IMG/VR virus record: IMGVR_UViG_3300025634_000001
Coordinates: 32,001 to 96,000 of that record
Length of the DNA: 64,000 bases
Source of the DNA: a virus
Strand: one strand, 5' to 3'
The translations under genes and the position numbers were made by a program. Under the pieces are notes generated by a model. That model searched no databases. It had not been told where the DNA came from and saw only the letters and a list, made by a program, of their open reading frames with translations. Positions 2,957-58,060 of this stretch are shown piece by piece (the stretch's first letter is position 1; the number at the start of each line of letters is the position of its first letter).

Positions 2957-3436
2957 ATGGCCCGTAAGCGGTCCCTCGCCACCCGCGAGTCAGACGCCCG
3001 CGCCCTGGAGTTCCGCCGCCGCGGCCTGTCCTATGAGCAGATCTCCGCCCAGATGGAATGGCGTTCCCCGTCCGCCGCCCACCAGGCCGTGCAGCGTGCC
3101 CTCGCCGACAGTGCCCGCGAGGCCGGCGAGGAAGTCCGCCAGATCGAAGCGGCAAGGCTGGACGAGCTCACCCGGACCCTGATGCGGGTGCTCGCCACCA
3201 AGCACTATGTCGTCTCGGTCGCCTCGGGAGTCGTCGCACGCCACCCCGAGACCGGGCAGCTGCTCCAGGACGACGCGCCGGTCATCCATGCTATCGCCGG
3301 GCTCGTGCGCATCAGCGAGCGGCGGTCGAAGCTCCTCGGCCTTGACGCACCGAAGCAGGTTGAGGTCCGCACAATTGACGCCATCGACTCCCGCCTCATC
3401 GAGCTTGCGGACCAGATGGCAGCAGTGGACGCCTGA
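2957..3436 (+). CDS. Terminase small subunit (N-terminal HTH)
   Basis: ALEFRRRGLSYEQIS HTH, ERRSKLLGLDAP motif, directly upstream of TerL; GGAGG RBS. Confidence 0.8.
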   Translation: MARKRSLATRESDARALEFRRRGLSYEQISAQMEWRSPSAAHQAVQRALADSAREAGEEVRQIEAARLDELTRTLMRVLATKHYVVSVASGVVARHPETGQLLQDDAPVIHAIAGLVRISERRSKLLGLDAPKQVEVRTIDAIDSRLIELADQMAAVDA

Positions 3437-5516: not shown

Positions 5517-8500
5517 ATGGGCGTCCGCACTCGCATCGGGAACGGCCTGACCCGCGTGGCGAAGACCTTCGGCACGTCGGTACCGGAGTCCTTCACGCAG
5601 GGTGAAGCCGCCAGCCAGATGACCCCGGCGTCCCCGTTCAGCCCCGGCACGCCCATCGGCCCGTACGACGGCTACGACCGGCACACCCGCCAGTTCAATT
5701 TCCAGACCGGCTACAACATCAGCACCCGGCCGCGGCTTCACGAGGCAGTGTCGTTCTCCACGCTCTCTGGCTTGGTAGAGTCTTACGATGTGGCTCAAAT
5801 ATGCTGCACGCCAAAGACTGAGATCATCACCAAGCGCGGCCTCGTCCCGATTGAGGACGTAGTTGTCGGCGATGAGGTAATCACGCACCTGGGCCGCTGG
5901 CGGCGCGTAACCGAGACGATGGTCAACAGGCCGCATACTCCCGTGCGGACGATGAAGACGAGCGCGTTCGAGGATCTGTCGGTCACCGGCAACCATCCTG
6001 TCTATGCGGTTGACTATGGCCTGAGTCAGACCAATAGGCGCGCAGCCAAGGGGATCGGCTGGGTTAGCGCCGACCGGTTGCGTCCGCGAGGGCCGAAGTC
6101 CCCCGGCAACCGCCGCTTTGACGGGCTTGTACTGCCCGCGCTCGCCTTCCCAGACGGATGCCCCGTACTCGACATAGGGACGATTGCCGGGGACGCATAC
6201 ACGGCCAACCCTGACGGAATGCTGGTCCGGACCCTCGGGGGACGGCTCACGCCGGTTCCCGCTCAGGTCAAGATGGACGCCGCCCTCGGCCGGCTGCTCG
6301 GCTGGTACCTGGCCGAGGGGTCGCAGGGCCATAACCGCGACGTACATTTCACCCTGGGTGCGGGCGAGCGCGATTACGCAGAGCAGATCGTCGCCGACGC
6401 CACCGCCGTTTTCGGCCTGGGTGGCACCATTAGTCCGGTGACCGGGGGCGCCAGCCTAGGCGTCCGCATCCACTCGACTATCCTCGCGTCGCTGTTCCGT
6501 TGCGGCACTGCGCACACCAAGCGGCTGCCGGAGTGGGCGTGGGCCGGCGGCCGGGAGTTCTTCACCGCCATGCTTGAGGCGTGGGCCCTCGGTGACGGCT
6601 GCCGCAGTATCCGCGAGGGCAAGGAAAACTGGTCACCCCGCATCATGGTGATCACTGTCTCGCGGGACCTGGCCTGGCAGATGCGGATGATCGCGATCGC
6701 CCTTGGCCTGTCTGCGTCCGTGGTCACCTCGCGGGGGCGCGACAAATACAAGTCCTCCGTCATCAACGGGCGAGAGCTTGCCAGTTCACCCATCTGCTAC
6801 CGGGTGGAATGGCGAGAGAAGCCGACCCGCTGGGGCCGTGAGTCCTTCGAGTTCGATGGCCGGTACCTCGCGACCGCGCTCGTCTCCGCCGAGCAGTCGG
6901 ACTACGACGGCCCGGTCTACAACCTCGAAGTCGAGGAAGACGAGTCCTACGTCACGACCGGCGGCACTGTCCACAACTGCATCTGGCATCGCATCGACTC
7001 CATCCGGTCCCTCGACTGGAAGCTGCTCCCGGCTGAGGGCTACAAGGGCGATGTCACCGACGCGATCCCGCTGGGCCTCGCCGCGCTGAAGAAGCCTGAC
7101 CGGAAGAACTACTTCAAGACGTGGCTCGCGAAGTACCTGTACGACATCCTCGCGTGGGACGCGGGAGCGATGTACCGGCTGCGGAACCGCGGCGGCCGGT
7201 GCATCGGCCTGCAGCCGGTTGACGGCCGGACCATCGCGCCGCTGCTCGACTACTGGGGCAACTCCCCCGACGAGCCCGCCGAGGCTTACGTCCAGTACGT
7301 CAACGGCCTGCCGTGGAACTGGCTGACCCGCGCGGACCTGATCTACGAGCCGTTCCGCCCGGTGACGAATTCCCCGTACGGGCGCCCGCCGATCGAGTCC
7401 GTGATCCTCAACGCGAACACGGACCTGCGGTTCCAGGCGTACTTTTTGCAGCGTTTCACCGCCGGGAACCTTCCCGCCGCGTTCGCGTCATCGCCTGAGT
7501 CGTGGTCACCGGACCAGATCGAGCAGTTCCAGAGCTACTGGGACGCCATGCTGTACGGCGACCAGGCCGGCAAGCACCAGATCAAGTGGATGCCGGGCGG
7601 CACCAAGATCGCCTGGTCTGATGAGAAGGACTTCTCGGACCAGTTCTCGCTGTTCATGATGCGGAAGACCTGCAGCGCCTATCACGTGGTGCCATCTGAC
7701 CTGGGCTTTACCGAGTCAGTGAACCGCTCGTCTGGCGAGTCGCAGGCCGACGTGCAGCACCGTGTCGGCGACCTGCCGCTGATGGAGCATGTCGAGGAAA
7801 TCGTCTCGATGTTCCTGCAGGACGACCTGGGCCTCCCGCTGCGGCAGGAGTTCGACCGCGGCGAGGAGCAGGTTGACCAGTACGCCCAGGCGCAGGCCGA
7901 TGTGCTGTACATGGACCGCGCGGTGGTGGGCTCGTCCGAGATCCGGGAGATCCGCTACGGCCTGACCGACACGACGCCGGTCCCGCGCTCGTTCTTCACG
8001 ACCCGCGCCGGCCCCATCCCGCTGTCGTCGCTGATGGCTGTTGCCGGGGCAGTGGACCCGGTGACCGCCGCCCCGGAACCGGGCGCCCCGCTGCCTCACC
8101 AGGTGTTCGAGGAGGCTCCGGGTGTCGCCCCGAACCCGCCGCTGTACGGGCAGCCGCTCGCGGAGGAGATCTACGGCCCGTCGGCTATCCCGGCGCACAC
8201 GGAGACGCAATCCACGATGCCGGTCGCCAAGGAAGGCGAAGGCGCGGGGATCACGGCGGAGACGGGGATCTACAGCTACGACCTCGACGGCAAGGACGAC
8301 GACGAACCGCGCACGGCAGAGACCAGTCTCCTGAAGCCGGCCGACTCGCAGGCGGTCATCAAGTCTGAGCTCGCTGCTTTCCGCCGCTTTGAGCGCACCC
8401 GGCGCAAGTCTGGTGAGTGGCGGGACTTCAAGTTCAGTGCCGTCGCTGACGTGCAGGCCCACAACCTCAACGACGACGGCAGGCTCGCTGTCCGCAAGGC

Positions 8501-8594
8501 TACGGGTGAGGTGGCCGTCGCGGGGCTCGCGGTGATGGCTGCGGACACGGGACGAGTGCTGATGCTTCAGCGAGCGCTAGATCCCGAGGATTAG
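5517..8594 (+). CDS. Portal protein with intein; C-terminus carries the first strands of a NUDIX domain
   Basis: Portal motifs (YVQYVNG, SPYGRPPIE, CSAYHVVPSDLG, NRSSGESQ); ends AGLAVMAADTGRVLMLQRALDPED. Confidence 0.9.
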   Translation: MGVRTRIGNGLTRVAKTFGTSVPESFTQGEAASQMTPASPFSPGTPIGPYDGYDRHTRQFNFQTGYNISTRPRLHEAVSFSTLSGLVESYDVAQICCTPKTEIITKRGLVPIEDVVVGDEVITHLGRWRRVTETMVNRPHTPVRTMKTSAFEDLSVTGNHPVYAVDYGLSQTNRRAAKGIGWVSADRLRPRGPKSPGNRRFDGLVLPALAFPDGCPVLDIGTIAGDAYTANPDGMLVRTLGGRLTPVPAQVKMDAALGRLLGWYLAEGSQGHNRDVHFTLGAGERDYAEQIVADATAVFGLGGTISPVTGGASLGVRIHSTILASLFRCGTAHTKRLPEWAWAGGREFFTAMLEAWALGDGCRSIREGKENWSPRIMVITVSRDLAWQMRMIAIALGLSASVVTSRGRDKYKSSVINGRELASSPICYRVEWREKPTRWGRESFEFDGRYLATALVSAEQSDYDGPVYNLEVEEDESYVTTGGTVHNCIWHRIDSIRSLDWKLLPAEGYKGDVTDAIPLGLAALKKPDRKNYFKTWLAKYLYDILAWDAGAMYRLRNRGGRCIGLQPVDGRTIAPLLDYWGNSPDEPAEAYVQYVNGLPWNWLTRADLIYEPFRPVTNSPYGRPPIESVILNANTDLRFQAYFLQRFTAGNLPAAFASSPESWSPDQIEQFQSYWDAMLYGDQAGKHQIKWMPGGTKIAWSDEKDFSDQFSLFMMRKTCSAYHVVPSDLGFTESVNRSSGESQADVQHRVGDLPLMEHVEEIVSMFLQDDLGLPLRQEFDRGEEQVDQYAQAQADVLYMDRAVVGSSEIREIRYGLTDTTPVPRSFFTTRAGPIPLSSLMAVAGAVDPVTAAPEPGAPLPHQVFEEAPGVAPNPPLYGQPLAEEIYGPSAIPAHTETQSTMPVAKEGEGAGITAETGIYSYDLDGKDDDEPRTAETSLLKPADSQAVIKSELAAFRRFERTRRKSGEWRDFKFSAVADVQAHNLNDDGRLAVRKATGEVAVAGLAVMAADTGRVLMLQRALDPED
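5802..6977 (+). mobile_element. Intein with LAGLIDADG (DOD) homing endonuclease, 392 aa
   Basis: Starts CCTPKTEI, block B VTGNHPV, LLGWYLAEGS and AWALGDG endonuclease blocks, ends VYNLEVEEDESY...VHN followed by Cys+1. Confidence 0.93.
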
Positions 8595-32800: not shown

Positions 32801-35800
32801 GTGGGCGACATCAACGAGACGATTTCCGTCAACGCGGGGCCCGGTATCGCAGGGCTCAAGGAGTTCACGGACGCGCTCGATCAGGCGTCGGCGAAGTGGG
32901 CGGCGTTCGAGGACAAGCTCAACGGCGGCGGCGGTGGCGCCGGCCCGGCGAAGCTCGCCGCGAGCATGGACGCCGCTGCGGCTTCGATCTCCGAGGCTGC
33001 GGCGAAGATCAACGCGGCGGTGGATAAGGTCGGCGCGTCCGCTGATACGGCGGCCGGGGGGATCGAGCGGCTCGGCTCGGCTGCGGGGACCGCTGGCGGC
33101 GGCCTGGATGAGGCCGCTGCGGGGGCTGATGCTGCCGCTGCGGCGTCGGATCGCCTCGCGGAGGCCGCGGATGCGGCGGGGGCGTCCCTGGACGTTCAGG
33201 CGGCTTCAGCGGCCCGGGCGGGGAAGTCCGGTGCTGAGGCGGCTGCGTCGTCGGAGGGGTTCGGGAAGGTCGCGAAGGTCGCCCTCCTCGGCCTCGGTGT
33301 CGCGGCTGCGTACGGCCTTGACAAGGCGATGAAGTTCCAGTCGCAGATGCTGCTGCTGAACACCCAGGCGGGCGTGTCCCTGCCGAAGGTGAAGCAGATG
33401 TCCCAGGGCGTCCTGGAGATCTCCACCCAGACCGGCCAGTCCCTCTCCGACGTGTCCGAGTCCGCCTACCATGTCGCGTCGAACATGGCGTCGATGGGGT
33501 CGACGGTCCCGAACATGCTGAAGGCGACGAAGATCGCCGCTGAGGGCGCCTCTGTCGGCCACGCCCACATGGTCGATGTCACCAACGCGCTGACCGCCTC
33601 CATCGCATCCGGGATCCCGGGGGTCAAGAACTACTCCCAGGCGATGGGCATGCTCAACGCCACGGTGGGTTCCGGCGACATGAACATGCAGGACCTGTCG
33701 GAGGCGTTCGGGACCGGCATGGTCGCGTCGGTGAAGGGCTACGGCCTGTCGCTGAAGGACGTCGGCGCCGGGCTCGCGGTGTTCGGTGACAACAACATCC
33801 GGGGTGCCAAGGCGGGCACGGACATGCGGATGGCGGTCCAGTCCCTCGCCGTCCCCGCGGCCAGCGCGAAGAAGGAGCTCGCGGGGCTCGGGCTGACCCA
33901 GAACTCGCTGGCGAAAGACATGCAGTCCGGGGGGCTGCTGAAGGCCCTGGATGACCTGAACGGGAAGTTCAAAGAGCACGGGATCACCGCGAAGAACGAG
34001 GGCCAGGTCATCACTGACCTGTTCGGCAAGAAGGCCGGGGTGGGCCTGTCGCTGCTGATGGAGCAGATGGACCGGCTCAAGTCGAAGTACCCGGCGATCA
34101 CCGCGGGCGCGAACAGTTTCAATGCGGCGTGGGAGAAGACGCAGCAGTCCCCGGCGCAGAAGTGGAAGGAAGCCGTCGCCGGCTTGCAGGCGTCCGCGAC
34201 GGGGTTCGGTACTCAGCTGCTCCCCGCGTTCAGTTCCGCGCTGGGGTTCGCGGACAAGATCCTCGCCGACATCAACGGGACCAAAGGCGCCGCCCAGGGG
34301 CTCGCCGTCGCGTTCGGCGGAGCCGCTGCGCTGTTCACCGGCAAGAAGCTGGTCTCCGGGGTCGAGTCGGCGTTCAAGACCGGCGAGACGGTCTTGCGCG
34401 GGGTCGGGAAGATCTCCGAGGTGCTGAAGATCCCCGGCCTGGACAAGCTCAGCAATATCGGCAAGAGCGCCGGCCTGGATACGGCGGCGGAGTCCTTGAC
34501 TGGGGCCGCGGGGGATCTCAGCGCCGCGGCGGCGAAGCTGTCAGAGGGCGGCCTCGGGGGCGCTGCAGGTGCGGCAGGAAAAGCCGAAGGCGGCGCTGCG
34601 GCGACGGCGGAAGGCGCGGGCGCCGGCGGCCTGCTCGCGAAGATAGGCAGCAGGACCGGCATGGATGCCGGAGGCCTGGCCTCCGCCGCCAATCCGATCG
34701 CGGCGGGCGTCGCGGCGGGCCTGCTGCTGCGCGGCTACAGCGATTCGCTGGCACCGAAGGGCACCGGGGCCGGGGATATCAGCAAGGCCATCCAGAAGGG
34801 TAACCCGATCAGCCCGGACTGGGCTCTCGGCGGGATCATCGGCAAGCTCGGGACATCGAACTTCGGCCTTGACGCCGGCAAATTCCTCAGCCGGGGCCTG
34901 TCGCAGGCCAGCCAGATGGTCACGGACCCGTTCGACGCTGCCCGGCACGGCATCGCCGGCCTGTTCGGCGGCGGCGGCCCGGCGCAGATGCAGCGCACCG
35001 GGGGCGGGCGCGGGGACGCGGTGAACTTCGCCGCCGTCAAGCCCCCGGACACCGGGGCGTTCACCTCGGCTGGACACGCCATCGAGAGCGCCTTCGACGG
35101 CGCGAAGGCGCGCGCCGGGTCGGCACTGTCGGGGATCGCGTCGGAGGTCGGCAGCGCGGGGTCGAAAGCCGCGTCAGAGGCGTCTTCCGCGTTCCACGGC
35201 GTCGAGTCGGCGGTGGCGTCGGGGATGTCGTCGGCTGCGGCGGCGGCCGGGTCCGGCGCGGGCAGGATCGAGTCGGCGCTAGCACGGCTGCCGGGCGAGC
35301 TCACGTCGGTCGGCAGTGCGGCGATGGCCGGGCTGGCTCACGGGATCGAGTCGGGGATCGGCGCTGTCATCGGCGCGGCCGAGCATGCCGCGGGCGCTGT
35401 CGAGGGCGCGATGAAAAACGTGCTGAAGATCTTCTCCCCGTCCAAGGTCACGGAGAAGATCGGCAAGTCCGCAGTCGACGGCCTCGTCGTGGGCCTGGAA
35501 GGCGGCCAGGCCGCCGTCACCGCGGCGGCGCAGGCGCTCGGCCAGCAGACCGCGAAGGCCGCCGACGTGACCGCCATCGACACCGCGATCACCAAGGGGA
35601 TCGCCGACGCGGGCAAGGACTCGGCGCTGGTGAAGTACCTCAAGGCGGACCAGTCGAAGCTGCTGGCCCTGGCGGCGCAGCGGACGAAGCTCGAGGCGGA
35701 GATCACCGACGCCCAGCAGATAGCCCAGGCCGCGATCAGCGGGGCGTCCATCATGAACGCGTCGGCCGCCACCCCCTACGATCCGTCGACGGTGCAGTCC

Positions 35801-36544
35801 CCGTACACGCTCGTGCAGGGGCAGCAGATGCAGGCGCAGCAGGCCGCCATGTTCGCCAAGGCCGTCGGGCAGGACAAGAAGCTCGGCCTCAACGCCACGT
35901 CGCTGAACCAGATCGTGCAGTCGGGGGCCTCGGCGGGCCTGCCGGTGGCGCAGGGGATCGCGCAGGGCGGCAAGTCCACCGTCGCGCAGCTCAACGCGCT
36001 GCAGGCCCAGATCCACGCGTCCGCCGCGAAACTCGGCGACGAGGGCGCGGGGCCGATGTACCAGGCCGGCGTCCAGGCTGGCCAGGGGCTCGCGGAAGGC
36101 ATCAAGGCGTCACTCGGCTCGGTCGACGCGGCGATCTCGCAGATGGCCAAGTCGATGGTGGCGACGATCGAGAAGGATCTCAAGATCCACAGCCCGAGCC
36201 TGGTGTTCGCGGAGCGGGGCGCGATGGTGCCCGCGGGCGTGGCGATGGGCGTCGACGCGGGGGCCGGGCAGGCTGCCGCTGCGGTGGGCCGGATGGGCAG
36301 CCGGATGACGGGCGCCTACCACCCCGCCATGGCCTACGCGGGCGGGTTCGGCGGGGGCCACGGCGGCGGGAGCGGTTCCGGTTCAGGCTCGGGCGGCGGC
36401 GACACGCATGTCACCGTGAACATGACGGTCATGGGCAGTGTCTCGACGCAGAACGACCTGATCAACGCAGTACAGCGCGGACTTTTGAAAAAAGGTTCGA
36501 ACAACTGGCAAGTTGGCGTTATCAGGCCAGGTCGGGGCGGGTGA
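32801..36544 (+). CDS. Tape measure protein (TP901-type core)
   Basis: 1247 aa Ala/Gly-rich; GIRGAKAGT-like core, LFGK, twice LKIxSPS motif. Confidence 0.92.
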   Translation: MGDINETISVNAGPGIAGLKEFTDALDQASAKWAAFEDKLNGGGGGAGPAKLAASMDAAAASISEAAAKINAAVDKVGASADTAAGGIERLGSAAGTAGGGLDEAAAGADAAAAASDRLAEAADAAGASLDVQAASAARAGKSGAEAAASSEGFGKVAKVALLGLGVAAAYGLDKAMKFQSQMLLLNTQAGVSLPKVKQMSQGVLEISTQTGQSLSDVSESAYHVASNMASMGSTVPNMLKATKIAAEGASVGHAHMVDVTNALTASIASGIPGVKNYSQAMGMLNATVGSGDMNMQDLSEAFGTGMVASVKGYGLSLKDVGAGLAVFGDNNIRGAKAGTDMRMAVQSLAVPAASAKKELAGLGLTQNSLAKDMQSGGLLKALDDLNGKFKEHGITAKNEGQVITDLFGKKAGVGLSLLMEQMDRLKSKYPAITAGANSFNAAWEKTQQSPAQKWKEAVAGLQASATGFGTQLLPAFSSALGFADKILADINGTKGAAQGLAVAFGGAAALFTGKKLVSGVESAFKTGETVLRGVGKISEVLKIPGLDKLSNIGKSAGLDTAAESLTGAAGDLSAAAAKLSEGGLGGAAGAAGKAEGGAAATAEGAGAGGLLAKIGSRTGMDAGGLASAANPIAAGVAAGLLLRGYSDSLAPKGTGAGDISKAIQKGNPISPDWALGGIIGKLGTSNFGLDAGKFLSRGLSQASQMVTDPFDAARHGIAGLFGGGGPAQMQRTGGGRGDAVNFAAVKPPDTGAFTSAGHAIESAFDGAKARAGSALSGIASEVGSAGSKAASEASSAFHGVESAVASGMSSAAAAAGSGAGRIESALARLPGELTSVGSAAMAGLAHGIESGIGAVIGAAEHAAGAVEGAMKNVLKIFSPSKVTEKIGKSAVDGLVVGLEGGQAAVTAAAQALGQQTAKAADVTAIDTAITKGIADAGKDSALVKYLKADQSKLLALAAQRTKLEAEITDAQQIAQAAISGASIMNASAATPYDPSTVQSPYTLVQGQQMQAQQAAMFAKAVGQDKKLGLNATSLNQIVQSGASAGLPVAQGIAQGGKSTVAQLNALQAQIHASAAKLGDEGAGPMYQAGVQAGQGLAEGIKASLGSVDAAISQMAKSMVATIEKDLKIHSPSLVFAERGAMVPAGVAMGVDAGAGQAAAAVGRMGSRMTGAYHPAMAYAGGFGGGHGGGSGSGSGSGGGDTHVTVNMTVMGSVSTQNDLINAVQRGLLKKGSNNWQVGVIRPGRGG

Positions 36545-46573: not shown

Positions 46574-46683
46574 ACGGGTTCTGCTTCAGGTGCGGCGCCT
46601 TCGGGCTGCTCGGCCGGGCTACGGCATGGTGCGGCAAATGCACGGACCGGTGGCACCGGGACCGCCAGCGAGGACCGCGATGA
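46570..46683 (+). CDS. Tiny zinc-finger protein
   Basis: CFRC...CGKC; coupled GTGA/ATGA. Confidence 0.45.
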   Translation: MNGFCFRCGAFGLLGRATAWCGKCTDRWHRDRQRGPR

Positions 46684-47438
46684 CGCCGCTGAAGCTGTCC
46701 GTCGACTCCGAGGGACGCGTTCACGGCCCGCGCATCACCTGGAACGACCCGTGGCCCTGCCGCAACGGGGACGCCGGGGGGATGAAGGTCCCGTCCGGGG
46801 TGCTCGGGATGCTTGTCCACACCCAGGTTGGCAACAATCCGGGATCTGTCAGCTGGTTCAATAACAGCGCATCTCAGGCATCGGCACATTTCTGCGTGGC
46901 CCAAGATGGCTCGATCGTGCAGATGGGACCGGTCAACGGGTGGAAGGCGTGGCATGCCGCCGAGGGCAATCCCCACTGGTTCGGCTGTGAGTTCGCCGAC
47001 GACGGCAACCCCGCGAACCCGCTCACCGCATCGCAGGTCATCGCCGGGGCGCAGCTCCTCGAGCTGCTGTCGCGGCCCGATGTCGGCCGGTTCCCCCTCC
47101 AGATGAGCAACTCGCCGAGCACCGAGGGGCTCGGCTGGCACGGGATGGGCGGCGTCGCGTTCGGCGGCCACTTCGACTGCCCCGGCGACACCCGCAAAGC
47201 CCAGCGACCGCGGATCATCGCGCTGGCCGCGGCCATCCGGGCGGGCGGATCGCAGGCGGGACCGTTCCGGCACACCGCGCCGGGCGGGAAGACGCTCGGC
47301 GAGATAGCAGCCGCGCGCAGTACGACGCCGGAGCACGTCTTCGGCGTGTCCGCGAAGGCCTACACCGCCGCGGACGTGGCCGTGATCGCCACGCTGCCGC
47401 TGCCGCCCGGTTTCCCGTATTACACATCCAGCCCCTGA
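46680..47438 (+). CDS. Endolysin, N-acetylmuramoyl-L-alanine amidase (Amidase_2)
   Basis: VHT, SAHF..DG.I.Q, AWHA, E, H..CPG zinc-amidase motifs; LysM-like C-terminus. Confidence 0.9.
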   Translation: MTPLKLSVDSEGRVHGPRITWNDPWPCRNGDAGGMKVPSGVLGMLVHTQVGNNPGSVSWFNNSASQASAHFCVAQDGSIVQMGPVNGWKAWHAAEGNPHWFGCEFADDGNPANPLTASQVIAGAQLLELLSRPDVGRFPLQMSNSPSTEGLGWHGMGGVAFGGHFDCPGDTRKAQRPRIIALAAAIRAGGSQAGPFRHTAPGGKTLGEIAAARSTTPEHVFGVSAKAYTAADVAVIATLPLPPGFPYYTSSP

Positions 47439-48684: not shown

Positions 48685-48900
48685 GGCGATGCAAGGATTT
48701 TTTCGTGACTCCTCCTGCGGATTGAGTCCGCAGGATTCTCAGGCAGCTATCGCCTGACGGGCAAGCCCTGCCCGCAAGATGTTGATGGCCGCGTTCACGT
48801 CCGCGTGGGCCTCGTGGCCGCACGACAGGCACCGGAAAACGGCCTGGCTTGCACGGTTCCCCTTGGCGACGTGCCCGCACTGAGCGCATCGCTGCGAGGT
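48685..48900 (-). ncRNA. Predicted TnpB omegaRNA (scaffold 5' end approximate) and guide
   Basis: After the tnpB stop: hairpin CCTGCGGA-CTCAA-TCCGCAGG then AGGAGTCAC, a typical IS200/605-type right end; guide GAAAAAATCCTTGCATCGCC. Confidence 0.7.
48689..48704 (+). pseudogene. Orphaned original 5' end (MQGFF) of the gene at 50066; also the predicted TnpB guide
   Basis: GAAAGG..ATG CAA GGA TTT TTT C abuts the element end; matches TTG AAC GGC TTT TTC C at 50066. Confidence 0.65.
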
Positions 48901-49926
48901 GTTCTGGGGGTTTACTGCGACTACCGTCCGTCCGGCCCATTCTGCCTTGGCGGCGAGTATCCGCAGGAAGTTACCCCATCCCGCATCCTTGATGGATCTG
49001 TTCAGCCCAGCTTTGGCCGCCGCGCCGTTTGGCTCGAACGTGCCGTCACCAACCGGCCGCGGTTTCGGTCGGCGGGTCATGTTCGCGATCTTCAATGCTT
49101 CATGCACGATCACGTCATGGTCACGGACGAGAGCCAGCGCGGTCTTATGGGCATGGTCGAGGCGCTGGCGGCGTGCCTTGCCGTACAGTGCCGCAACCCG
49201 CCGGGTGGCCTTGCGCCTGCGATTGCTTCCTAGTTTCTTGCGGGAGTGCTTCCGGTTGGCGGCGGCAAGACGTTCAGTGATGGCGGCATGCGGGCGCGGG
49301 TTCGGGACGTGCTTCCCGTCGCTGGTCGTCAGGAACGACATCACGCCTAGGTCGATGCCGACGACCGCGCCAGTCGGCGCCAGTGCCTCAACCGGCACGT
49401 CATCGCAAGTCAGGATCACGTACCAGCGACCAAGCTCACGTCTTACCGTGATCCTCTTGACGATGCCCCTGACCGGGCGGTGCTGGTGTACGCGGACGTG
49501 GCCGATGCCCTGAAGCTTCACGCGGGTCACGGTCGGATGCGGGACAGAATCCCAGAGGCATGCATGGCCATTCTCCGGCCACTCGATGGAGTTCCACCGA
49601 CCCCGCCCCTTGAAGCGAGGATGGCCGGGTACCTCGCCTGCCTTGACGCGACGGAAGAAGCCTAGGAACGCATCGTCAAGGCGACGGAGAGTTTCCTGCT
49701 CGCAACTGTAGGCCCACCGGGTGAACCGCTCCGGGGCGGCGGCACGGATCTCCTTCAGCTGTGCCGCCTGTGTGCTGTAGAAGATGCGGCGTTTCCCCAT
49801 CCGCCATGCCTCAACGCGTTCCTCAAGCGCGGCGTTATATAGCTCGCGGGTGTCCTCAAGGCACGCCTCGAACGCGGCTATCTGCTTAGCAGTCGGCCGC
49901 AGAAGGAACCTATAGTTGCGATACAA
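48739..49926 (-). CDS. tnpB: TnpB RNA-guided endonuclease, no TnpA
   Basis: YRFLLRPT..Q, LYNAAL, RuvC GIDLG / VHEAL / ADVNAAINI, CAQC..CLSC zinc finger; probable TTG start. Confidence 0.95.
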   Translation of the reverse strand: MYRNYRFLLRPTAKQIAAFEACLEDTRELYNAALEERVEAWRMGKRRIFYSTQAAQLKEIRAAAPERFTRWAYSCEQETLRRLDDAFLGFFRRVKAGEVPGHPRFKGRGRWNSIEWPENGHACLWDSVPHPTVTRVKLQGIGHVRVHQHRPVRGIVKRITVRRELGRWYVILTCDDVPVEALAPTGAVVGIDLGVMSFLTTSDGKHVPNPRPHAAITERLAAANRKHSRKKLGSNRRRKATRRVAALYGKARRQRLDHAHKTALALVRDHDVIVHEALKIANMTRRPKPRPVGDGTFEPNGAAAKAGLNRSIKDAGWGNFLRILAAKAEWAGRTVVAVNPQNTSQRCAQCGHVAKGNRASQAVFRCLSCGHEAHADVNAAINILRAGLARQAIAA

Positions 49927-49954
49927 CCTGCACCGGGTCTCAGTAGTCGGTGTG

Positions 49955-50013
49955 GGTTCAGGCCCGGTTCGGTGGTTGCACATCGGCCGGGCCGCTTTAT
50001 GTCGAACAGTCTA
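49955..50013 (-). promoter_or_regulatory. tnpB promoter/leader
   Basis: TAGACT, AAAG, GGCCCGG/CCGGGCC hairpin. Confidence 0.55.
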
Positions 50014-50471: not shown

Positions 50472-51140
50472 CTAGCCGGCGATATTGCCATCCCCGGCCG
50501 AGTCGCCGTAGTTGTTGTTATAGCCATCCGTCCACTGCTGGTACTGCTCGCTGGCGACAGGGACGACGAAGCGGCCGAACACCCGGTAGGAGATCGTCGT
50601 CACCGTCACGCCGTAGTGCCACGACCAGTCCCCGATGCCGATACCGCCGAAGGTGGTCCCGTGCGGGAACGCCAGCTCATACCACGTCGAGGTACTGTCG
50701 GCCGGGTCGGCACCGTGATCGTTCTCGCTGTAGGCGACACCCGCATTGAACGCCGCGCTCGGCAGCTCGGACGCAGTGAACGAGAAATCGGCGTAACCCG
50801 CCATCTGCCCGGTGACCCTGGACTTGATCACGTCGCCGGCGTAGGAGCCGCCCTGGTTCGGGGTCGGCGCTCCCTTGACCGTCGTGAAGGTGCCGATGTC
50901 GCCGAGCGTCGCGGTGAAGGTGTAGGCGCCGGGCGAGCCGCCAGTCAGGGTGACCGTCAGGCTCCGGGTCATGGTGTCGTCAGCCCAGGTGTCCGGGTTA
51001 CCGTTCCCGCCGTCAGGGCGGTCGGTGACAAAGGTCAGCGCGTGCCACGACGGCTGACGGGCAGCGGCGTTCGCGATGCCGCCTGACGTCAGCAGCGCTG
51101 CGGCTGCGGCAACCGCGATGGCTGCGGCTTTGATGCTCAT
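50472..51140 (-). CDS. Secreted protein
   Basis: Signal peptide MSIKAAAIAV...ANA|AA; GAGGAG RBS. Confidence 0.75.
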   Translation of the reverse strand: MSIKAAAIAVAAAAALLTSGGIANAAARQPSWHALTFVTDRPDGGNGNPDTWADDTMTRSLTVTLTGGSPGAYTFTATLGDIGTFTTVKGAPTPNQGGSYAGDVIKSRVTGQMAGYADFSFTASELPSAAFNAGVAYSENDHGADPADSTSTWYELAFPHGTTFGGIGIGDWSWHYGVTVTTISYRVFGRFVVPVASEQYQQWTDGYNNNYGDSAGDGNIAG

Positions 51141-51294
51141 TACGTTGTCTCCTCGTTGAGTGTTCAATCGGTTGCTGTGGGGTATTTAGGCAGTGATCGC
51201 ACCGTTACCGCTCGCGCTCCCGGTTACAGCCGGCGAGCACCCCCGCCAAGCCCGGCCGCGCCGATCCCCCCCAGGCGCGGCCGGGCCCCAGGGG

Positions 51295-51735
51295 TCAGGC
51301 GACCTTGCTGAGCACCTCGCCGTGCAGCGCGAGCCCCGCTTTTGCGAGTGCCAGGCGGACCTCATCGACCTGCGGCCGGCTGAAACCCAGATCATCCAGG
51401 TCGAGAGCGGACAGGCCCTTCAGCTTGCCGACCGTATTGAAGCCCGCGGTCTCCAGGCGCCGCTGGATGGTCACCGCCGGGCCGGTCCGGAAGGCAGGCC
51501 ACAGGGACGTCAGGGACGCGTCGAGGGGATCGGGGGCGCCGGGGGCGGGTGTGCCGGCGAGGAGCGCGCGGACCTCGGCCTCCTTGTAACGTCGATGTCC
51601 CCCAAGTGTCCTTATTGTTGACAGTTTGCCCGCTTTAGCCCATCTTGTCACGGTCTTCGGATCAACTCTGAACATCTGGGCTACTTCGGACGGCGTGAGT
51701 AGATTGTCTGTTTCGATTGGCGTCCTGGCACTCAT
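51295..51735 (-). CDS. bldC: BldC-family MerR-like regulator fused to an RNAP alpha-CTD-like domain
   Basis: LLTPSEVAQMFRVDPKTVTRWAKAGKLSTIRTLGGHRRY; C-terminal RLETAGFNTVGKL..DL..GF...VDEVRLAL.KAGLAL. Confidence 0.85.
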   Translation of the reverse strand: MSARTPIETDNLLTPSEVAQMFRVDPKTVTRWAKAGKLSTIRTLGGHRRYKEAEVRALLAGTPAPGAPDPLDASLTSLWPAFRTGPAVTIQRRLETAGFNTVGKLKGLSALDLDDLGFSRPQVDEVRLALAKAGLALHGEVLSKVA

Positions 51736-51836
51736 CTTGCTACCCTCCCATTAGGTCCGCTGGCCTCCTGACCAGCGGTGATGTACCCTTATTGCGGTAA
51801 AGGGCGGCTATTGCGGATAACCGCCTGACTGCTTCA

Positions 51837-51879
51837 CCCCGTCCGGCCTCCCCAGGTCGGGCGGGGCTTTTTCATGCCC
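51837..51879 (+). terminator. Hairpin + T-tract followed by CATGCCC
   Basis: CCCCGTCCGGCCT/AGGTCGGGCGGGG then CTTTTT. Confidence 0.55.
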
Positions 51880-52049: not shown

Positions 52050-52805
52050 TTAGCGCAGCACGCCGAAGTCGGCGCCCCAGAGCTGGTTGTCGTTCACCGT
52101 GCCCAGCTCAGGCACGAGGAAGGCACCCGTGAACCCGGTCAGGCTGTCGGTCTCCAGCTGCGGCCGGGGAGTGTTCGTCGGATACCCGTTCTTCGGGTAG
52201 TCCAGCACGAACGGGTGCGAGAACGTGGTGTCCGACCCGTTGATCAGCGGCACGTAGCCGTGGGTGATCGTAGTGTCGAGCGTGTCCACGACCCAGGCGG
52301 TCTTGCTCGTGTAACCACAGGGCTGAAGGGTCACCTTCGTGCCCTGCTGGGCGGTCGCCGCGACACCCGCGCACAGGCCGGACGCCACCCCGTACGGGGT
52401 GTACTCCAGCTCGAACGCCGGGTCATCCGGGTAGCCGTTCCCTGCGGCCGTGACGCCGGCCATCCCGATCCCGGAACCGTAATGCAGGTCGATCGCCGCG
52501 GACATGAGACCCGCGGCGAAGAAGTCCGACGTGGTGCCGTTGAACTCGGCGCTGAAGTCCTCAGCCGGGTCGGTGTCCGACGTGCGGAACAGGATGACCG
52601 GCTGGCCGACCTTCGCAGCCTGCTGGAACACGTCGAGAACGAACGCCGGCGTGTGGTGGGTGCCGAACTCGCGGCTGAACACGTCAGCGCACGTAGACCC
52701 GCACGACGGGGTGGCAGCACTGGCGGACATCACGCCCACCGCGCCGACACCGCCGACGAGGGTCAGCGTGGCCGCTGCGGCGAAAACCTTGCTCTTGACA
52801 GACAA
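52050..52805 (-). CDS. Secreted protein, possible ricin-type beta-trefoil
   Basis: TTG after AGAGGA; signal peptide ..SASA|A; SGLC.GV...VTLQPC..W and NQLW. Confidence 0.7.
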   Translation of the reverse strand: MSVKSKVFAAAATLTLVGGVGAVGVMSASAATPSCGSTCADVFSREFGTHHTPAFVLDVFQQAAKVGQPVILFRTSDTDPAEDFSAEFNGTTSDFFAAGLMSAAIDLHYGSGIGMAGVTAAGNGYPDDPAFELEYTPYGVASGLCAGVAATAQQGTKVTLQPCGYTSKTAWVVDTLDTTITHGYVPLINGSDTTFSHPFVLDYPKNGYPTNTPRPQLETDSLTGFTGAFLVPELGTVNDNQLWGADFGVLR

Positions 52806-52904
52806 TTCGATTCCTCTGTTTGGACTCCAGCCTCGCCCTGCGCGCGGCTGGCCCTGCGATTCCCCGGTCATTACCCGGACCGGGACGGGGGTCTATGGGG
52901 GCGG

Positions 52905-55952: not shown

Positions 55953-56195
55953 TCACGCCGCCGCGCCCGGATTCACGCGGGAGCCGGGCATCGGCCTCGG
56001 GTCGGCGCCGGCCGCCTGCTGGGCTTCCTGCTGGCGCTTCTCCCAGGCGATGACGTCGGCTAGCTTGTAGAGGGTCCTGCGCCCGAACCGTGTCCCGGAC
56101 GGGCCGTAGCCGCGGTGCTTCCAGTAGCGGACCGTGGACGGGACAGTCCGCAGGCGGTCGGCTAGCTCGGCGGTGGTCAGCCACTGGTCGTCCAC
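55953..56195 (-). CDS. Excisionase/HTH_17 DNA-binding protein
   Basis: WLTTAELADRLR..STVRYW..G.GP..GRRTLY..DV.AW; GAGG RBS. Confidence 0.85.
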   Translation of the reverse strand: MDDQWLTTAELADRLRTVPSTVRYWKHRGYGPSGTRFGRRTLYKLADVIAWEKRQQEAQQAAGADPRPMPGSRVNPGAAA

Positions 56196-56360
56196 GGAAA
56201 TCCTCACAGGGAATACGTACCGGAACCCGTCACGGGGATGATGACGACAGGTTCGCATATCCGTTGGCTATATGCAACCTGTACCGGGATGCGGTTTAAT
56301 ATCCCCGTGACGAATCAACGCCAGCCAACGGTAACCCCTGAATCCGGGGACTCCCCCGGC

Positions 56361-56837
56361 ATGCGGGACGAGTACGCCGGCGAACCGGAACGCGTCCTCG
56401 CCGCCCGGGTCCGCGAGATCCGGGAGAAGCTCGGCATGACCCAGGCCGAAGTCGCCAGGGGAATGACCGCGCAGGGGCTCGCCATGCTGCAGAGCACCAT
56501 CGCCAAGATAGAGGCCTGCCAGCGGCCCGTACGCCTCAACGAGGCCGTCCGCCTCGCCGCCGTGCTCCGCACCCAGCTGGACGACCTCATGACCGACCCC
56601 CGCCAGCGGGACATGCAGGACGCCCTCGCCGCAGCGAGGGACGAGGAACGGGAGCTGCTCGGGCAGCTTCTCCAGGCAACCCACCGGCTCGAGCAGCGCC
56701 GCGCCGCGCTCGACGCCGCCGGGCATGCCGTGCGCGAGTCGGCCGCCCAGGTCGAGGAACTGCAAGACCTGTACGCGCAAGCCCAGTACACGACCGGGAT
56801 GCTGATCGCAGCCGGCGACGAGAGGAACGAACCGTGA
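56361..56837 (+). CDS. XRE-family immunity repressor-like protein
   Basis: VREIREKLGMTQAEVA..QSTIAKIE..RPVRLNEA; start may be GTG 56307. Confidence 0.85.
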   Translation: MRDEYAGEPERVLAARVREIREKLGMTQAEVARGMTAQGLAMLQSTIAKIEACQRPVRLNEAVRLAAVLRTQLDDLMTDPRQRDMQDALAAARDEERELLGQLLQATHRLEQRRAALDAAGHAVRESAAQVEELQDLYAQAQYTTGMLIAAGDERNEP

Positions 56838-58060
56838 GCCATGTCGAGGACCGGTGGTTCACCACCGTCAAGGACGAGAACGGCAAGGCCGGCAAGGAAC
56901 GCAGCGCACGGCACGGCAACGGCCGGCGCTGGCGGGCCCGGTACGAGGACCCGGACGGGCGGGAGCGGAACCGCAGCTTCGCCACGAAGGTGATGGCCGA
57001 GAACTTCCTCACCGAGGTCGAGCACTCCAAGCTCGCCGGTTCCTACCGTGATCCCGACGCCGGGAGGGTGAGCCTGCGGAAGTACGCGGAGGGGTGGGTG
57101 GATGCCTATCATGCCGACTCCGCCCGCGGCGAGCAGATCCGCCGGCAGCTCCGGCTCCACATCCTGCCGGGCCTCGGCGCTCACCCCCTGGCTCAGCTCA
57201 GCCAGCGGCCGAGCATCATCGGGAAATTCTTGCAGGGGCTGCCCATGACGCCGGCAGGGCAGAGCCAGGTCCGCATCACCCTGTCCAGCCTTCTCGGCAC
57301 GGCACTGGAGGACGGCCTGATCGCCCGGAATCCGTGCGAGGCCAAGGTGGCGAAGATCCAGCTCCCGCCGAGGCGCAAGCTCATCCCGTGGACATCCGCC
57401 CAGATCTCCGAGCTCCGCGCCGGGCTGCCCGAGCAGTGGCGGGCCGTGGCCGACTGCGGGTCAGGGCTCGGGCTGCGGCAGGGGGAGATATTCGGCCTGG
57501 CTGAAGATGCTGCCGGGCTGCTGAAGCGGCGAGCGCGGATCGTGCGGCAGGTAACGCGGATCAACGGGCGCCTGTGGTTCTCGCTGCCGAAGGGAGATAA
57601 GGAGCGGGACGTGCCGCTGCCCGAGTGGGTCAGGTTCGCGCTGGCCGCCCACATGGAGCGCTTCCCTCCCGTGGAGGTGACGCTGCCGTGGAATGACCCC
57701 AAGAACCTGAAGCGGCACGGGAAGCCGGTTACCGTCGCGCTGCTGTTCACTAAGAACGGCGGCCCGATGATGCACTCGACGTTCAACACGATGGCGTGGC
57801 GGCCGGCCCGGAACGCGGCGGGCATGACCGAGGGCGGGCTGCATCAGCTGCGCCACTTCTACGCCTCGACTCTTCTCGCCGGAGGGGTTGACATCAAGGC
57901 AGTGTCGGAGTATCTGGGCCACCATGACGCGTCGGTGACGCTGAGGGTTTACGCGCACCTGATGCCGGTGGCCGAGGGGCGTGCCCTGAGGGCGATCGAG
58001 GCCGCTTTTGAGGCCGATGACGGCCCCGTGACGGCCCCTGAGGCAGAAAGTGGCCCCTGA
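56834..58060 (+). CDS. int: Tyrosine integrase
   Basis: RWRARY arm domain; GLRQGE, K, HQLRH, LGH, VYAH catalytic residues. Confidence 0.95.
   Translation: MSHVEDRWFTTVKDENGKAGKERSARHGNGRRWRARYEDPDGRERNRSFATKVMAENFLTEVEHSKLAGSYRDPDAGRVSLRKYAEGWVDAYHADSARGEQIRRQLRLHILPGLGAHPLAQLSQRPSIIGKFLQGLPMTPAGQSQVRITLSSLLGTALEDGLIARNPCEAKVAKIQLPPRRKLIPWTSAQISELRAGLPEQWRAVADCGSGLGLRQGEIFGLAEDAAGLLKRRARIVRQVTRINGRLWFSLPKGDKERDVPLPEWVRFALAAHMERFPPVEVTLPWNDPKNLKRHGKPVTVALLFTKNGGPMMHSTFNTMAWRPARNAAGMTEGGLHQLRHFYASTLLAGGVDIKAVSEYLGHHDASVTLRVYAHLMPVAEGRALRAIEAAFEADDGPVTAPEAESGP

What the first reader, a model, noticed from the sequence alone, without database searches (positions are those of the whole stretch)
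51295..51735. Phage BldC fused to an RNA polymerase alpha-CTD-like domain
Seen: residues 1-60 are nearly identical to Streptomyces BldC as I recall it (LLTPAEVATMFRVDPKTVTRWAKAGKLTSIRTLGGHRRY). After a Pro-rich linker, RLETAGFNTVGKLKGLSALDLDDLGFSRPQVDEVRLALAKAGLAL follows the alpha-CTD pattern (L.RAGINTVGEL....DL...FG..S..E....L...GL.L). Established: BldC is normally a stand-alone ~68-aa MerR-like protein that oligomerises head-to-tail on DNA and delays sporulation; alpha-CTD contacts activators and UP elements. Inference: the fusion could co-polymerise with host BldC and display decoy alpha-CTDs, rewiring the host developmental regulon.
Basis: partly seen in the sequence, partly recalled or inferred. 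Interest (0 to 1): 0.82.

Follow-up and report, generated by a model that had tools for sequence, protein, structure and literature searches.

The report
Phage BldC fused to alpha-CTD-like domain
A temperate phage from peat carries a near-copy of BldC, the small DNA-binding protein that delays sporulation in Streptomyces-like bacteria, joined to a second domain with the fold of the RNA polymerase alpha subunit's C-terminal domain; this unreported architecture suggests the phage interferes with its host's developmental switch.

Summary
Window 51295-51735 (minus strand) encodes a 146-aa protein.

- **BldC half:** residues 12-60 are a bona fide BldC-family wHTH. NCBIfam HTH_BldC scores 103 bits against a cut-off of 77, and the core is 90 % identical to Streptomyces BldC. 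Of the 21 published DNA-contact and head-to-tail interface residues, 20 are identical.
- **Alpha-CTD half:** residues ~66-141 have the RNAP alpha-CTD fold. It is the best of 48,161 PDB chains (Z 10.7 and 10.4). Profile-profile probability against actinobacterial RpoA CTDs is 97 %. The canonical UP-element hairpin (N294/G296/K298/S299) is replaced.
- **Family:** the protein is not unique, because at least 116 metagenomic clusters share both domains. The three members with usable context lie in related phages, after a conserved secreted-protein gene.
- **Not found in:** cultured phages, plasmids, about 1,200 sampled actinobacterial genomes, or the searchable literature.
- **Gene organisation:** a self-contained cassette bracketed by hairpins, in a complete 105.7-kb temperate phage.

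Best reading: a phage-made "modified BldC" that occupies BldC-type sites in the host. The added domain gives it a new DNA or transcription-machinery contact. The scan has noted phage-borne BldC copies on other DNA before, without this C-domain.

The parts
51295..51735 (-). Complete CDS of the 146-aa BldC/alpha-CTD-like fusion protein (P0001), stop codon included
   Evidence: 116 full-length homologues
51556..51702 (-). Residues 12-60: BldC-family winged helix-turn-helix. This is the AT-rich, rare-codon half of the gene (GC3 0.58).
   Evidence: NF033787 103 bits; PDB 6AMA E 2e-27; Foldseek TM 0.90, rmsd 0.8 A; functional residues conserved; codon usage
51505..51555 (-). Residues 61-77: Pro-rich linker with the conserved PDPLxAPV motif; lower model confidence
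51313..51504 (-). Residues 78-141: alpha-CTD-fold (SAM-like, double helix-hairpin-helix) domain, starting at the invariant L78-W79
   Evidence: conserved columns
51298..51312 (-). Residues 142-146: conserved C-terminal tail ending [AV]-A-COOH. A possible ClpXP-type degron (inference only).
   Evidence: A146 in 53 of 56; position 145 is V in 27 and A in 21; PMC9775585
51743..51749 (-). Shine-Dalgarno GGGAGGG, 7 nt before the ATG; conserved in homologues
51757..51778 (-). Leader hairpin or palindrome CCGCTGG-N8-CCAGCGG just 5' of the SD. It is conserved in four other loci, and L166 keeps pairing with a different stem sequence.
   Evidence: z = -3.2
51790..51816 (-). Two direct repeats (plus strand TATTGCGG at 51790-51797 and 51809-51816, 19 bp apart) in the presumed promoter region. 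They are kept in L165. A 22-nt stretch over the second repeat (51805-51826) is kept in a diverged, more abundant relative.
51837..51866 (.). GC-rich hairpin (13 pairs) between the upstream secreted-protein gene and this gene; it insulates the cassette
51250..51286 (-). Perfect 13-bp inverted repeat with an 11-nt loop, 9 nt after the stop codon: a terminator-like hairpin. Part of it is kept in the diverged relative.
52050..52871 (-). Upstream 273-aa secreted protein of no known family. It lies upstream of the fusion gene on the same strand in three loci.

Best explanation
This is a phage accessory transcription factor, a 'modified BldC'. The N-terminal wHTH is kept almost identical to the host's BldC. 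It should therefore recognise the same AT-rich AATTNNNN(C)-type direct repeats, assemble head-to-tail on them alone or mixed with host BldC, and so sit on the host BldC regulon. That regulon includes whiI, whiD, sigF, smeA-sffA and hupS, the genes whose repression keeps the mycelium vegetative. A flexible Pro-rich linker connects the wHTH to a domain descended from, or sharing ancestry with, the RNA polymerase alpha C-terminal domain. This domain gives each DNA-bound protomer an extra contact surface that BldC lacks. The surface is basic (R/K at 91, 93, 119, 127, 132, 133), and the canonical UP-element hairpin is remodelled. I therefore think it most likely makes a new DNA or transcription-machinery contact that strengthens or changes BldC-type regulation. 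The likely benefit to the phage is that the host stays in vegetative growth and does not enter sporulation. The gene is an insulated cassette in a temperate phage, consistent with expression independent of the late operon. What is shown: both domain identities, conservation of the BldC functional residues, the family, its phage context, and the cassette structure. What is inferred: binding to host BldC sites, mixed oligomers, the role of the C-domain, and the effect on development.
For: - **N-domain identity:** NF033787 is above its cut-off. Identity to BldC structures is about 86 %. The model superposes on 6AMA at rmsd 0.8 A.
- **Functional residues:** 20 of the 21 DNA-contact and interface residues named in PMC5859096 are identical in this protein, and they are 77-100 % conserved across 56 family members.
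- **Uneven conservation:** the N-core is 85 % identical to Streptomyces BldC on average across the family, while the C-domains are only 53 % identical to each other. This means selection to stay BldC-like.
- **C-domain identity:** alpha-CTD ranks first and second of 48,161 chains (Z 10.7 and 10.4; other SAM/HhH folds reach 7.5 at most). hhalign gives 97.3 %. There are transitive links through proteins that Pfam calls RNA_pol_A_CTD. Atlas structural neighbours are all PF03118 clusters.
- **Basic surface:** conserved basic columns are listed.
- **Phage context:**. Related phage contigs share a lysin (65 %), a phrog_19005 protein (70 %) and the upstream secreted protein (53 %).
- **Targets probably not phage DNA:** there are no canonical AATTN4C arrays in the phage genome above chance.
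- **RDF role already filled:** a separate excisionase-like HTH sits next to the integrase.
- **Known BldC function:** BldC represses developmental genes and prolongs vegetative growth (PMC6428758).
Against: - No experiment or expression data exist. No RNA run holds the locus.
- The host is unknown, so whether it has BldC and a sporulating life cycle is assumed from the 90 % identity.
- BldC sites are degenerate, so a lack of consensus arrays in the phage does not exclude phage targets.
- The window copy lacks two of the family's conserved basic residues (Q91 and S119).
- Nothing tested shows what the C-domain binds.
- Only 3 of more than 100 family members have usable genomic context.
Confidence: 0.55

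Rival explanations
1. Decoy alpha-CTD. The protein co-polymerises with host BldC and displays free alpha-CTD copies. These titrate activators, sigma region 4 or UP-element DNA away from the real RNA polymerase alpha subunit.
For: The alpha-CTD fold and homology are real. The best cellular match of the C-domain is RpoA itself, at 42 % identity over 45 residues. The BldC interface residues are identical.
Against: The 265-determinant hairpin N294-x-G296-x-K298-S299 is replaced by G-[LF]-[RK]-P-x-Q across the family. R265 has no secure equivalent: T89 by hhalign, R91 (Q in this copy) by MAFFT. The acidic 261 and the 287 determinants are not recognisably kept. C-domains diverge quickly (53 % pairwise), which is not expected for a mimic that must track a highly conserved host surface.
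Confidence: 0.12
2. A regulator of the phage's own genes, like mycobacteriophage D29 Gp36, a MerR-like protein that binds direct repeats and represses phage genes. Its resemblance to host BldC would then be ancestry, not mimicry. It may act at the conserved direct repeats and palindrome in its own promoter.
For: There is precedent in D29 Gp36 (PMC12266134). BldC-like HTH genes are common in actinophages, with 245 IMG/VR loci. The conserved TATTGCGG repeats and leader palindrome upstream of the gene are kept even in a diverged relative. A weak four-unit BldC-like array lies inside the gene's own AT-rich 5' half.
Against: Typical phage BldC-like regulators are far more diverged; the second copy in this same phage is only 45 % identical. 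This family holds 85-98 % identity to host BldC in the DNA-reading core. No consensus BldC arrays occur in the 105.7-kb genome above chance. The upstream repeats are 19 bp apart and lack the position-9 C, unlike contiguous 9-bp BldC units.
Confidence: 0.2
3. The C-domain is an oligomerisation (SAM-like) module. It would turn monomeric BldC into a dimer or polymer that bridges or loops DNA, acting as a nucleoid-architectural protein.
For: The fold class is SAM-like. SAM domains appear at Z 5.4-6.1, and Pfam SAM_EPH gives a weak hit at E 0.046. Relatives occur as long tandem arrays (P0121).
Against: Alpha-CTD matches stand about 3 Z units above SAM domains. Alpha-CTD itself is monomeric (established knowledge).
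Confidence: 0.1
4. A recombination directionality factor (excisionase) for the phage integrase. BldC and Xis share a fold and a way of forming filaments on DNA.
For: The protein hits TIGR01764 'excise' and phrog_66. Pukovnik Xis is a structural neighbour at Z 8.1. The phage has a tyrosine integrase.
Against: It scores far better as BldC (103 against 32 bits). A dedicated excisionase-like HTH (55953-56258) lies right beside the repressor-integrase pair, about 4 kb from this gene. In relatives the gene travels with the lysis and secreted-protein genes, and no integrase was found in the parts of those contigs that were read.
Confidence: 0.04

Closest known systems
BldC of Streptomyces coelicolor / S. 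venezuelae (SCO4091; PDB 6AMA, 6AMK; NCBIfam NF033787)
   Same: The N-terminal 60 residues have the same wHTH fold (rmsd 0.8 A) and a 90 % identical core. They keep the same base-reading residues (K26, R30), wing residues (H46, R47, R48) and head-to-tail interface residues.
   Different: BldC is 68 aa, chromosomal, and consists of the wHTH only. This protein is phage-encoded and carries an extra ~80-residue linker plus an alpha-CTD-fold domain.
C-terminal domain of the bacterial RNA polymerase alpha subunit (Pfam PF03118; e.g. PDB 1Z3E_B, 3K4G, 8HVR_K)
   Same: The same compact helical double helix-hairpin-helix fold (Z 10.4-10.7, rmsd 1.9-2.6 A over 66-68 residues). Homology is detectable by profiles (hhalign 97 %), and it is 42 % identical to Streptomyces RpoA over 45 residues.
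   Different: It is not attached to an alpha N-terminal domain. It falls below Pfam's own detection. The hairpin is one residue shorter, with G-[LF]-[RK]-P-x-Q in place of N-[FL]-G-x-K-S. It also has its own invariant L-W motif and a conserved C-terminal tail.
Stand-alone phage BldC-like / MerR-like regulators (mycobacteriophage D29 Gp36, PMC12266134; 245 IMG/VR loci; earlier scan notes e1-6010191 and e1-5918587)
   Same: They are phage-encoded small wHTH proteins of the BldC/Xis type that bind direct repeats.
   Different: They are single-domain and usually much more diverged from host BldC. None of the 80 best viral loci has the C-domain.
Other phage copies of actinomycete developmental or nucleoid regulators, such as WhiB-like and Lsr2-like proteins
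   Same: The concept is the same: a phage carries a near-copy of a host global regulator.
   Different: Here the copy is fused to a domain related to an RNA polymerase subunit. I found no description of this in the literature searches.

Membership tests
BldC family (NF033787) | Score above the curated NCBIfam cut-off | tested here: met
   103.4 bits against a cut-off of 77, residues 12-59
BldC family (NF033787) | DNA-reading residues K26, R30 (major groove), H46, R47, R48 (wing, minor groove) and phosphate contacts T27, T29, W31, K33 | tested here: met
   All are identical in the window protein (numbering +1) and 84-100 % conserved in 56 family members
BldC family (NF033787) | Head-to-tail oligomer interface: F21, R22, V23, W31 against L11', E16', I40', T42', L43', G44' | tested here: met
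   All are identical. Actual oligomerisation was not tested.
BldC family (NF033787) | Protein consists of the wHTH alone (~68 aa, no further domain) | tested here: not met
   146 aa with a folded C-terminal domain. It is therefore a BldC-domain protein, not a canonical BldC.
BldC family (NF033787) | Binds AATTNNNN(C) direct repeats cooperatively | not testable with these tools
   Needs EMSA, FP or ChIP
RNA polymerase alpha C-terminal domain (PF03118) | Match to the Pfam model at its gathering score | tested here: not met
   PF03118 is not listed even at E 10, and no match at E<=1 in the six-frame search of the phage
RNA polymerase alpha C-terminal domain (PF03118) | Homology detectable by profile methods | tested here: met
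   Family profile against PDB alpha-CTDs gives E 5e-5. hhalign against 26 RpoA CTDs gives 97.3 %, E 1.8e-11. Transitive hits P0121, P0131 and P0133 are PF03118 at 1e-28 to 1e-81.
RNA polymerase alpha C-terminal domain (PF03118) | Alpha-CTD three-dimensional fold | tested here: met
   VIA-align gives Z 10.7 (4MEX_A 248-317) and 10.4 (1Z3E_B), ranks 1-2 of 48,161. Foldseek TM is 0.70-0.79. Atlas TM is 0.72-0.80.
RNA polymerase alpha C-terminal domain (PF03118) | 265 determinant for UP-element DNA (E. coli R265, N268, N294, G296, K298, S299, E302; numbering from my own knowledge) | tested here: not met
   N294 to G (52/56), G296 to R/K (46/56; S here), K298 to variable, S299 to Q (45/56), N268 to N in only 19/56 (R here). 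Only E302 is kept (38/56). The R265 equivalent is ambiguous.
RNA polymerase alpha C-terminal domain (PF03118) | Tethered to the alpha N-terminal (assembly) domain as part of RpoA | tested here: not met
   The N-terminus is a BldC wHTH. The phage has no RpoA-like gene.
Phage excisionase / RDF (TIGR01764, phrog_66) | Small HTH_17 protein encoded next to its integrase and acting on att sites | tested here: inconclusive
   It hits TIGR01764 at 32.5 bits (cut-off 28.8) but hits BldC much better. The gene is about 5 kb from the integrase, and another excisionase-like gene (55953-56258) lies next to it. Activity cannot be tested here.

The most novel reading that the evidence does not exclude
Phages have captured the alpha C-terminal domain of RNA polymerase and tethered it to a host-mimicking DNA-binding head. 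At every BldC site in the host chromosome, a surrogate alpha-CTD would then capture, or be captured by, the partners of the real alpha-CTD (activators, sigma region 4, neighbouring alpha-CTDs). This would switch BldC-repressed sporulation promoters into a phage-chosen state. It would be the first case of viral mimicry of an RNA polymerase subunit domain used to reprogram bacterial development. The same C-domain on a Cro/C1-type head (P0134), and viral HTH_17 + PF03118 clusters in the atlas, would make it a general phage 'portable alpha-CTD' module.
Probability: 0.12. Interest if true: 0.85.

Novelty: new variant of a known kind. Interest (0 to 1): 0.62.

Why it matters
BldC is one of the few regulators that set the length of vegetative growth in antibiotic-producing actinomycetes. 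Phages need growing hyphae and are shut out by spores. A phage family keeps the BldC DNA-reading and oligomerisation surfaces nearly unchanged while adding a domain related to an RNA polymerase subunit. That makes it a natural, ready-made tool for two questions: how BldC filaments communicate with RNA polymerase, which is unknown because BldC has no effector domain, and whether temperate soil phages manipulate sporulation timing.

The work also shows that alpha-CTD-like domains occur outside RpoA as portable modules. They are found on two kinds of HTH head, as stand-alone proteins of about 71 aa, and as long tandem arrays. I found no literature on this.

Tried and rejected
Genomic context for most metagenomic homologues could therefore not be fetched. 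A degenerate DNA-pattern scan replaced it and gave only 4 loci.
- **Homodimer of the C-domain (complex prediction):** no verdict (score 0.01). This counts neither for nor against binding.
- **The search for related loci in genome contigs:**
  - The C-domain-only alignment A2 was too variable to use.
  - The single C-domain query found no relatives.
It is therefore no evidence on whether the fusion occurs in cellular genomes.
- **The genome search for the C-domain:** no match in 401 + 401 + 401 genomes, that is, not found in those searched. A positive control on the metagenomic records was not possible because they are not held. The only internal control is that the same pipeline found the rpoA CTD at 37-38 % identity in 2 of 5 genomes.
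- **Region-restricted word search:** only 22 candidates, so uninformative.
- **Megablast of 24 kb against phages and plasmids:** no match.
- **RNA evidence:** no RNA holder is listed for the locus, so there is no evidence on expression.
- **Read laying:** contigs only, no variants.
- **Sigma-70-type promoter scan:** none found upstream. This is not informative for actinomycete promoters.
- **TTA (bldA-dependent) codon:** none in the gene.
- **Pfam SAM_EPH hit (E 0.046):** rejected as the family assignment, because alpha-CTD outranks SAM domains by about 3 Z units.
- **WD40 hits:** zero-stretch artefacts of the TLGGH motif.
- **Unpublished genomes G006 and G023:** they were among the genomes tallied.

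Full report
**1. The observation**

Window 51295-51735 (minus strand) is a clean 146-aa ORF. It has an ATG start and a GGGAGGG Shine-Dalgarno 7 nt upstream. The window is positions 32001-96000 of a complete 105,737-bp IMG/VR virus record with terminal repeats. It encodes:
- terminase large subunit (3207-4904)
- portal (5517-8594)
- tape measure (32801-36544)
- an amidase endolysin (46590-47438)
- a TnpB (48739-49983)
- an N6/N4 DNA methylase and a helicase
- a Cro/C1-type HTH (56238-56837) directly followed by a tyrosine integrase (56834-58060)

So 'phage' is right, and the phage is temperate. Identical copies of the locus occur in contigs from several peat metagenomes.

**2. The N-terminal domain is BldC**

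Residues 12-59 score 103.4 bits on NCBIfam HTH_BldC, against a cut-off of 77. Residues 1-64 align to the crystallised BldC proteins 6AMA/6AMK at E 2e-27. The AlphaFold model (mean pLDDT 86, N-domain blocks 92-95) superposes on 6AMA at rmsd 0.8 A, TM 0.90.

Schumacher et al. (PMC5859096) name three sets of functional residues:
- base-reading residues K26 and R30
- wing and phosphate contacts H46, R47, R48, T27, T29, W31, K33, plus backbone contacts at A15 and D24
- head-to-tail interface residues F21, R22, V23, W31 against L11', E16', I40', T42', L43', G44'

In the window protein, 20 of these 21 are identical. The exception is A15 to S, a backbone contact. Across 56 family members each position is 77-100 % conserved. 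The 49-residue core is 90 % identical to Streptomyces BldC.

**3. The C-terminal domain is an alpha-CTD-type domain**

The single-sequence evidence is weak: phmmer gives E 0.025 to S. coelicolor and M. smegmatis alpha, and Pfam PF03118 does not fire. Five independent lines then agree.

a. A profile of 56 full-length homologues (A1) searched against all PDB sequences hits, over positions 80-135, only RNA polymerase alpha subunits (best E 4.8e-5).

b. hhalign of the C-domain family against 26 actinobacterial RpoA CTDs collected here gives probability 97.3 %, E 1.8e-11, 50 columns, 32 % identity.

c. An exhaustive phmmer of the C-domain against 1.8 billion representatives finds multi-repeat proteins (P0121, P0131, P0133). 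Pfam calls these RNA_pol_A_CTD at 1e-28 to 1e-81.

d. Structure also agrees. Without using Foldseek, VIA-align places E. coli alpha 248-317 (Z 10.7, rmsd 2.6 A over 68 residues) and B. subtilis alpha-CTD (Z 10.4, rmsd 1.9 A over 66 of 67) first and second among 48,161 chains. RAD51-N and SAM domains reach 7.5 at most. Foldseek gives TM 0.70-0.79 to isolated alpha-CTD chains, including the S. coelicolor one. The atlas's own model finds only PF03118 clusters.

e. In Streptomyces and Kitasatospora genomes, the only match to the C-domain is rpoA itself, at 42 % identity over 45 residues.

**4. It is not a functional copy of alpha-CTD**

I mapped the hhalign and MAFFT alignments onto E. coli numbering, which comes from my own knowledge. 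The second hairpin N294-L-G296-K-K298-S299 becomes G117-[LF]-[RK]119-P-x-Q122 and is one residue shorter. N268 is N in only 19 of 56 members. R265 aligns either to a variable T/A (hhalign register) or to the family's R91 if a two-residue deletion is allowed (MAFFT), and the window copy has Q91. Only E302 is kept. The 261 and 287 determinants are not recognisably kept.

What is conserved instead:
- an invariant L78-W79 that precedes the domain
- a set of basic residues (R91, R/K93, R/K119, R127, R/K132, K/R133)
- a C-terminal tail ending [AV]-A

**5. It is a family, and where context exists it is a phage family**

The search for homologous proteins returned 3,491 relatives in the 80-256-aa class. 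Of the best 120, 116 carry both domains. N-domains are 77 % identical pairwise and C-domains 53 %.

The fusion was not found in:
- the 80 best IMG/VR BldC-like loci
- the 50,697 INPHARED phage records
- PLSDB plasmids
- samples of 401 Actinomycetota, 401 genomes of the Streptomyces family, and 401 genomes of the Actinomadura order, meaning not found in those searched

A degenerate DNA pattern for the C-domain motif pulled four metagenomic loci, and all four are true fusions. One of them, L166, lies on an 87-kb contig. It shares with the window an endolysin (65 %), a phrog_19005 protein (70 %) and the 273-aa secreted protein (53 %) that lies upstream of the fusion gene. An HNH endonuclease gene is inserted between that gene and the fusion gene. 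L167 has a duplicated version of the same secreted protein directly upstream. The atlas labels the protein's own cluster 89 % viral. It also lists a second viral cluster with HTH_17 plus PF03118 called directly; this is a lead only, with score 0.76. P0134 joins the same C-domain to a Cro/C1-type HTH.

**6. Gene organisation**

The gene is bracketed by hairpins. A 13-pair GC hairpin lies upstream (51837-51866). A perfect 13-bp inverted repeat lies 9 nt after the stop codon (51250-51286). Between the upstream hairpin and the SD are two elements:
- two TATTGCGG direct repeats 19 bp apart (51790-51816)
- a palindrome or leader hairpin CCGCTGG-N8-CCAGCGG (51757-51778)

These are conserved in the four other loci. 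In L166 the stem reads CCCCAGG/CCTGGGG, so pairing is kept through two double changes (the window fold has z -3.2). A more abundant, diverged relative in the peat samples retains only short stretches at both flanks. This looks like an insulated, separately regulated cassette of the 'moron' type. It lies on the strand of the early and lysogeny-side genes, convergent with the late operon.

**7. Mechanism**

BldC is a 68-aa wHTH with no effector domain. It coats 9-bp AT-rich direct repeats head-to-tail. It both represses and activates, and its net effect is to prolong vegetative growth (PMC5859096; PMC6428758).

This phage protein keeps every DNA-reading and interface residue. It should therefore read the same sites and be able to join the same filaments. 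The family holds this half at 85 % identity to host BldC while the other half drifts. I read that as selection to keep matching host sites or host BldC.

The 105.7-kb phage genome has no consensus AATTN4C arrays above chance. A separate excisionase-like gene sits beside the integrase. Both points count against the 'own-genome regulator' and 'RDF' readings, though neither is excluded.

What the alpha-CTD-like domain contributes is open. Its basic conserved surface and remodelled hairpin suggest a new nucleic-acid or transcription-machinery contact rather than faithful mimicry of alpha-CTD. The dimerisation test gave no verdict. I commit to 'modified BldC acting on the host BldC regulon, with the C-domain as an added contact module' at about 0.55, and I keep the decoy model at about 0.12.

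**8. Novelty**

Phage-borne BldC copies are common (245 IMG/VR loci). This scan has already noted them on other DNA (e1-6010191, e1-5918587). A phage MerR-like direct-repeat binder has also been characterised (D29 Gp36, PMC12266134). The fusion to an alpha-CTD-type domain is not in the literature I could search nor in any cultured phage. I class it as a new variant of a known kind.

**9. Side observations**

- The BldC half of this copy is written in rare A/T-ending codons. GC3 is 0.58 with 21 of 62 codons rare, against 0.87 with 5 of 84 rare in the rest of the gene. Its four homologues have GC3 0.78-0.81. None of 76 high-GC viral BldC-like genes is below 0.65, and the cellular bldC median is 0.81. 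The recoding is therefore specific to this phage lineage. It is identical in other peat samples.
- The conserved terminal [AV]-A resembles the Ala-Ala ClpXP degron of Streptomyces ClgR, PopR and sigma-AntA (PMC9775585). This is a hint only.

Noticed in passing
window 51550-51735 (codons 1-62 of the gene): The BldC half is written in rare A/T-ending codons: GC3 0.58, with 21 of 62 codons below 10 % synonymous usage, including AGA x2, ACA x5, ATA, CTA and GTA. The rest of the gene has GC3 0.87. Four homologues have GC3 0.78-0.81, and none of 76 high-GC viral BldC-like genes is below 0.65. There is no TTA codon. The copy is identical in other peat samples. The cause is unknown. Possibilities include avoiding recombination with host bldC, throttling translation, or an internal binding site.
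   Followed up: partly
window 51757-51816: The 5' region is conserved across five loci. It holds two TATTGCGG direct repeats 19 bp apart and a CCGCTGG-N8-CCAGCGG palindrome or RNA hairpin just before the SD. L166 keeps the pairing with a different stem sequence. This is a candidate operator or leader element for this cassette.
   Followed up: partly
window 51614-51649 (+ strand, inside the CDS): A weak four-unit BldC-like 9-bp array (ATTGTTGAC AGTTTGCCC GCTTTAGCC CATCTTGTC) lies inside the AT-rich recoded half. It is one of 3 such arrays in the genome, against 0.6 expected by chance (max 3 in the controls). It may simply follow from the local AT-richness.
   Followed up: partly
window 52050-52871 (-) and 50472-51167 (-): Two secreted proteins of no known family flank the fusion gene. 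A homologue of the 273-aa one lies upstream of the fusion gene in L166 (53 % identity) and L167 (a duplicated 375-aa form). Its sequence has a QLW-type motif that suggests a beta-trefoil lectin; that is my impression and was not tested.
   Followed up: partly
L166:1425-2111 (+): In the related 87-kb phage contig, an HNH homing endonuclease gene (phrog_826, E 2e-45) is inserted between the secreted-protein gene and the fusion gene.
   Followed up: no
proteins P0121 (900 aa), P0124, P0130, P0131, P0133, P0135: Metagenomic proteins made of 3 to 13 tandem alpha-CTD-like repeats. P0121 starts with a hydrophobic, signal-like segment. Pfam calls them RNA_pol_A_CTD at up to 2e-81. Their function is unknown and I found no literature.
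   Followed up: no
protein P0134 (181 aa); also P0137 and P0136: The same C-domain (E 1.5e-14 to the family HMM) is fused to a Cro/C1-type HTH_3 head instead of BldC. The domain therefore behaves as a portable C-terminal module for DNA-binding proteins.
   Followed up: partly
L066:1652-2995 (+) and L066:5896-6480 (+): In another viral contig, a 448-aa ORF ends in an alpha-CTD-like domain (E 2e-4 to the family HMM; no Pfam hit). A 195-aa ORF there carries two BldC-like HTH units in tandem.
   Followed up: no
genome C1:20055-20279 (+), outside the window; window 55953-56258 (-): The phage has two more HTH_17-type genes. One is a stand-alone BldC-like protein 45 % identical to the fusion's N-domain. 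The other is an excisionase-like 101-aa protein divergent from the repressor-integrase pair.
   Followed up: partly
window 51298-51312 (residues 142-146): The family's C-terminus is conserved as GE[VI]xxxx[AV]A-COOH (A146 in 53 of 56). It resembles the C-terminal Ala-Ala ClpXP degron described for Streptomyces ClgR, PopR and sigma-AntA.
   Followed up: partly
window 48739-49983 (-): A solo TnpB (OrfB_IS605 + Cas12f1-like TNB domains) sits between the lysis cassette and this accessory region.
   Followed up: no
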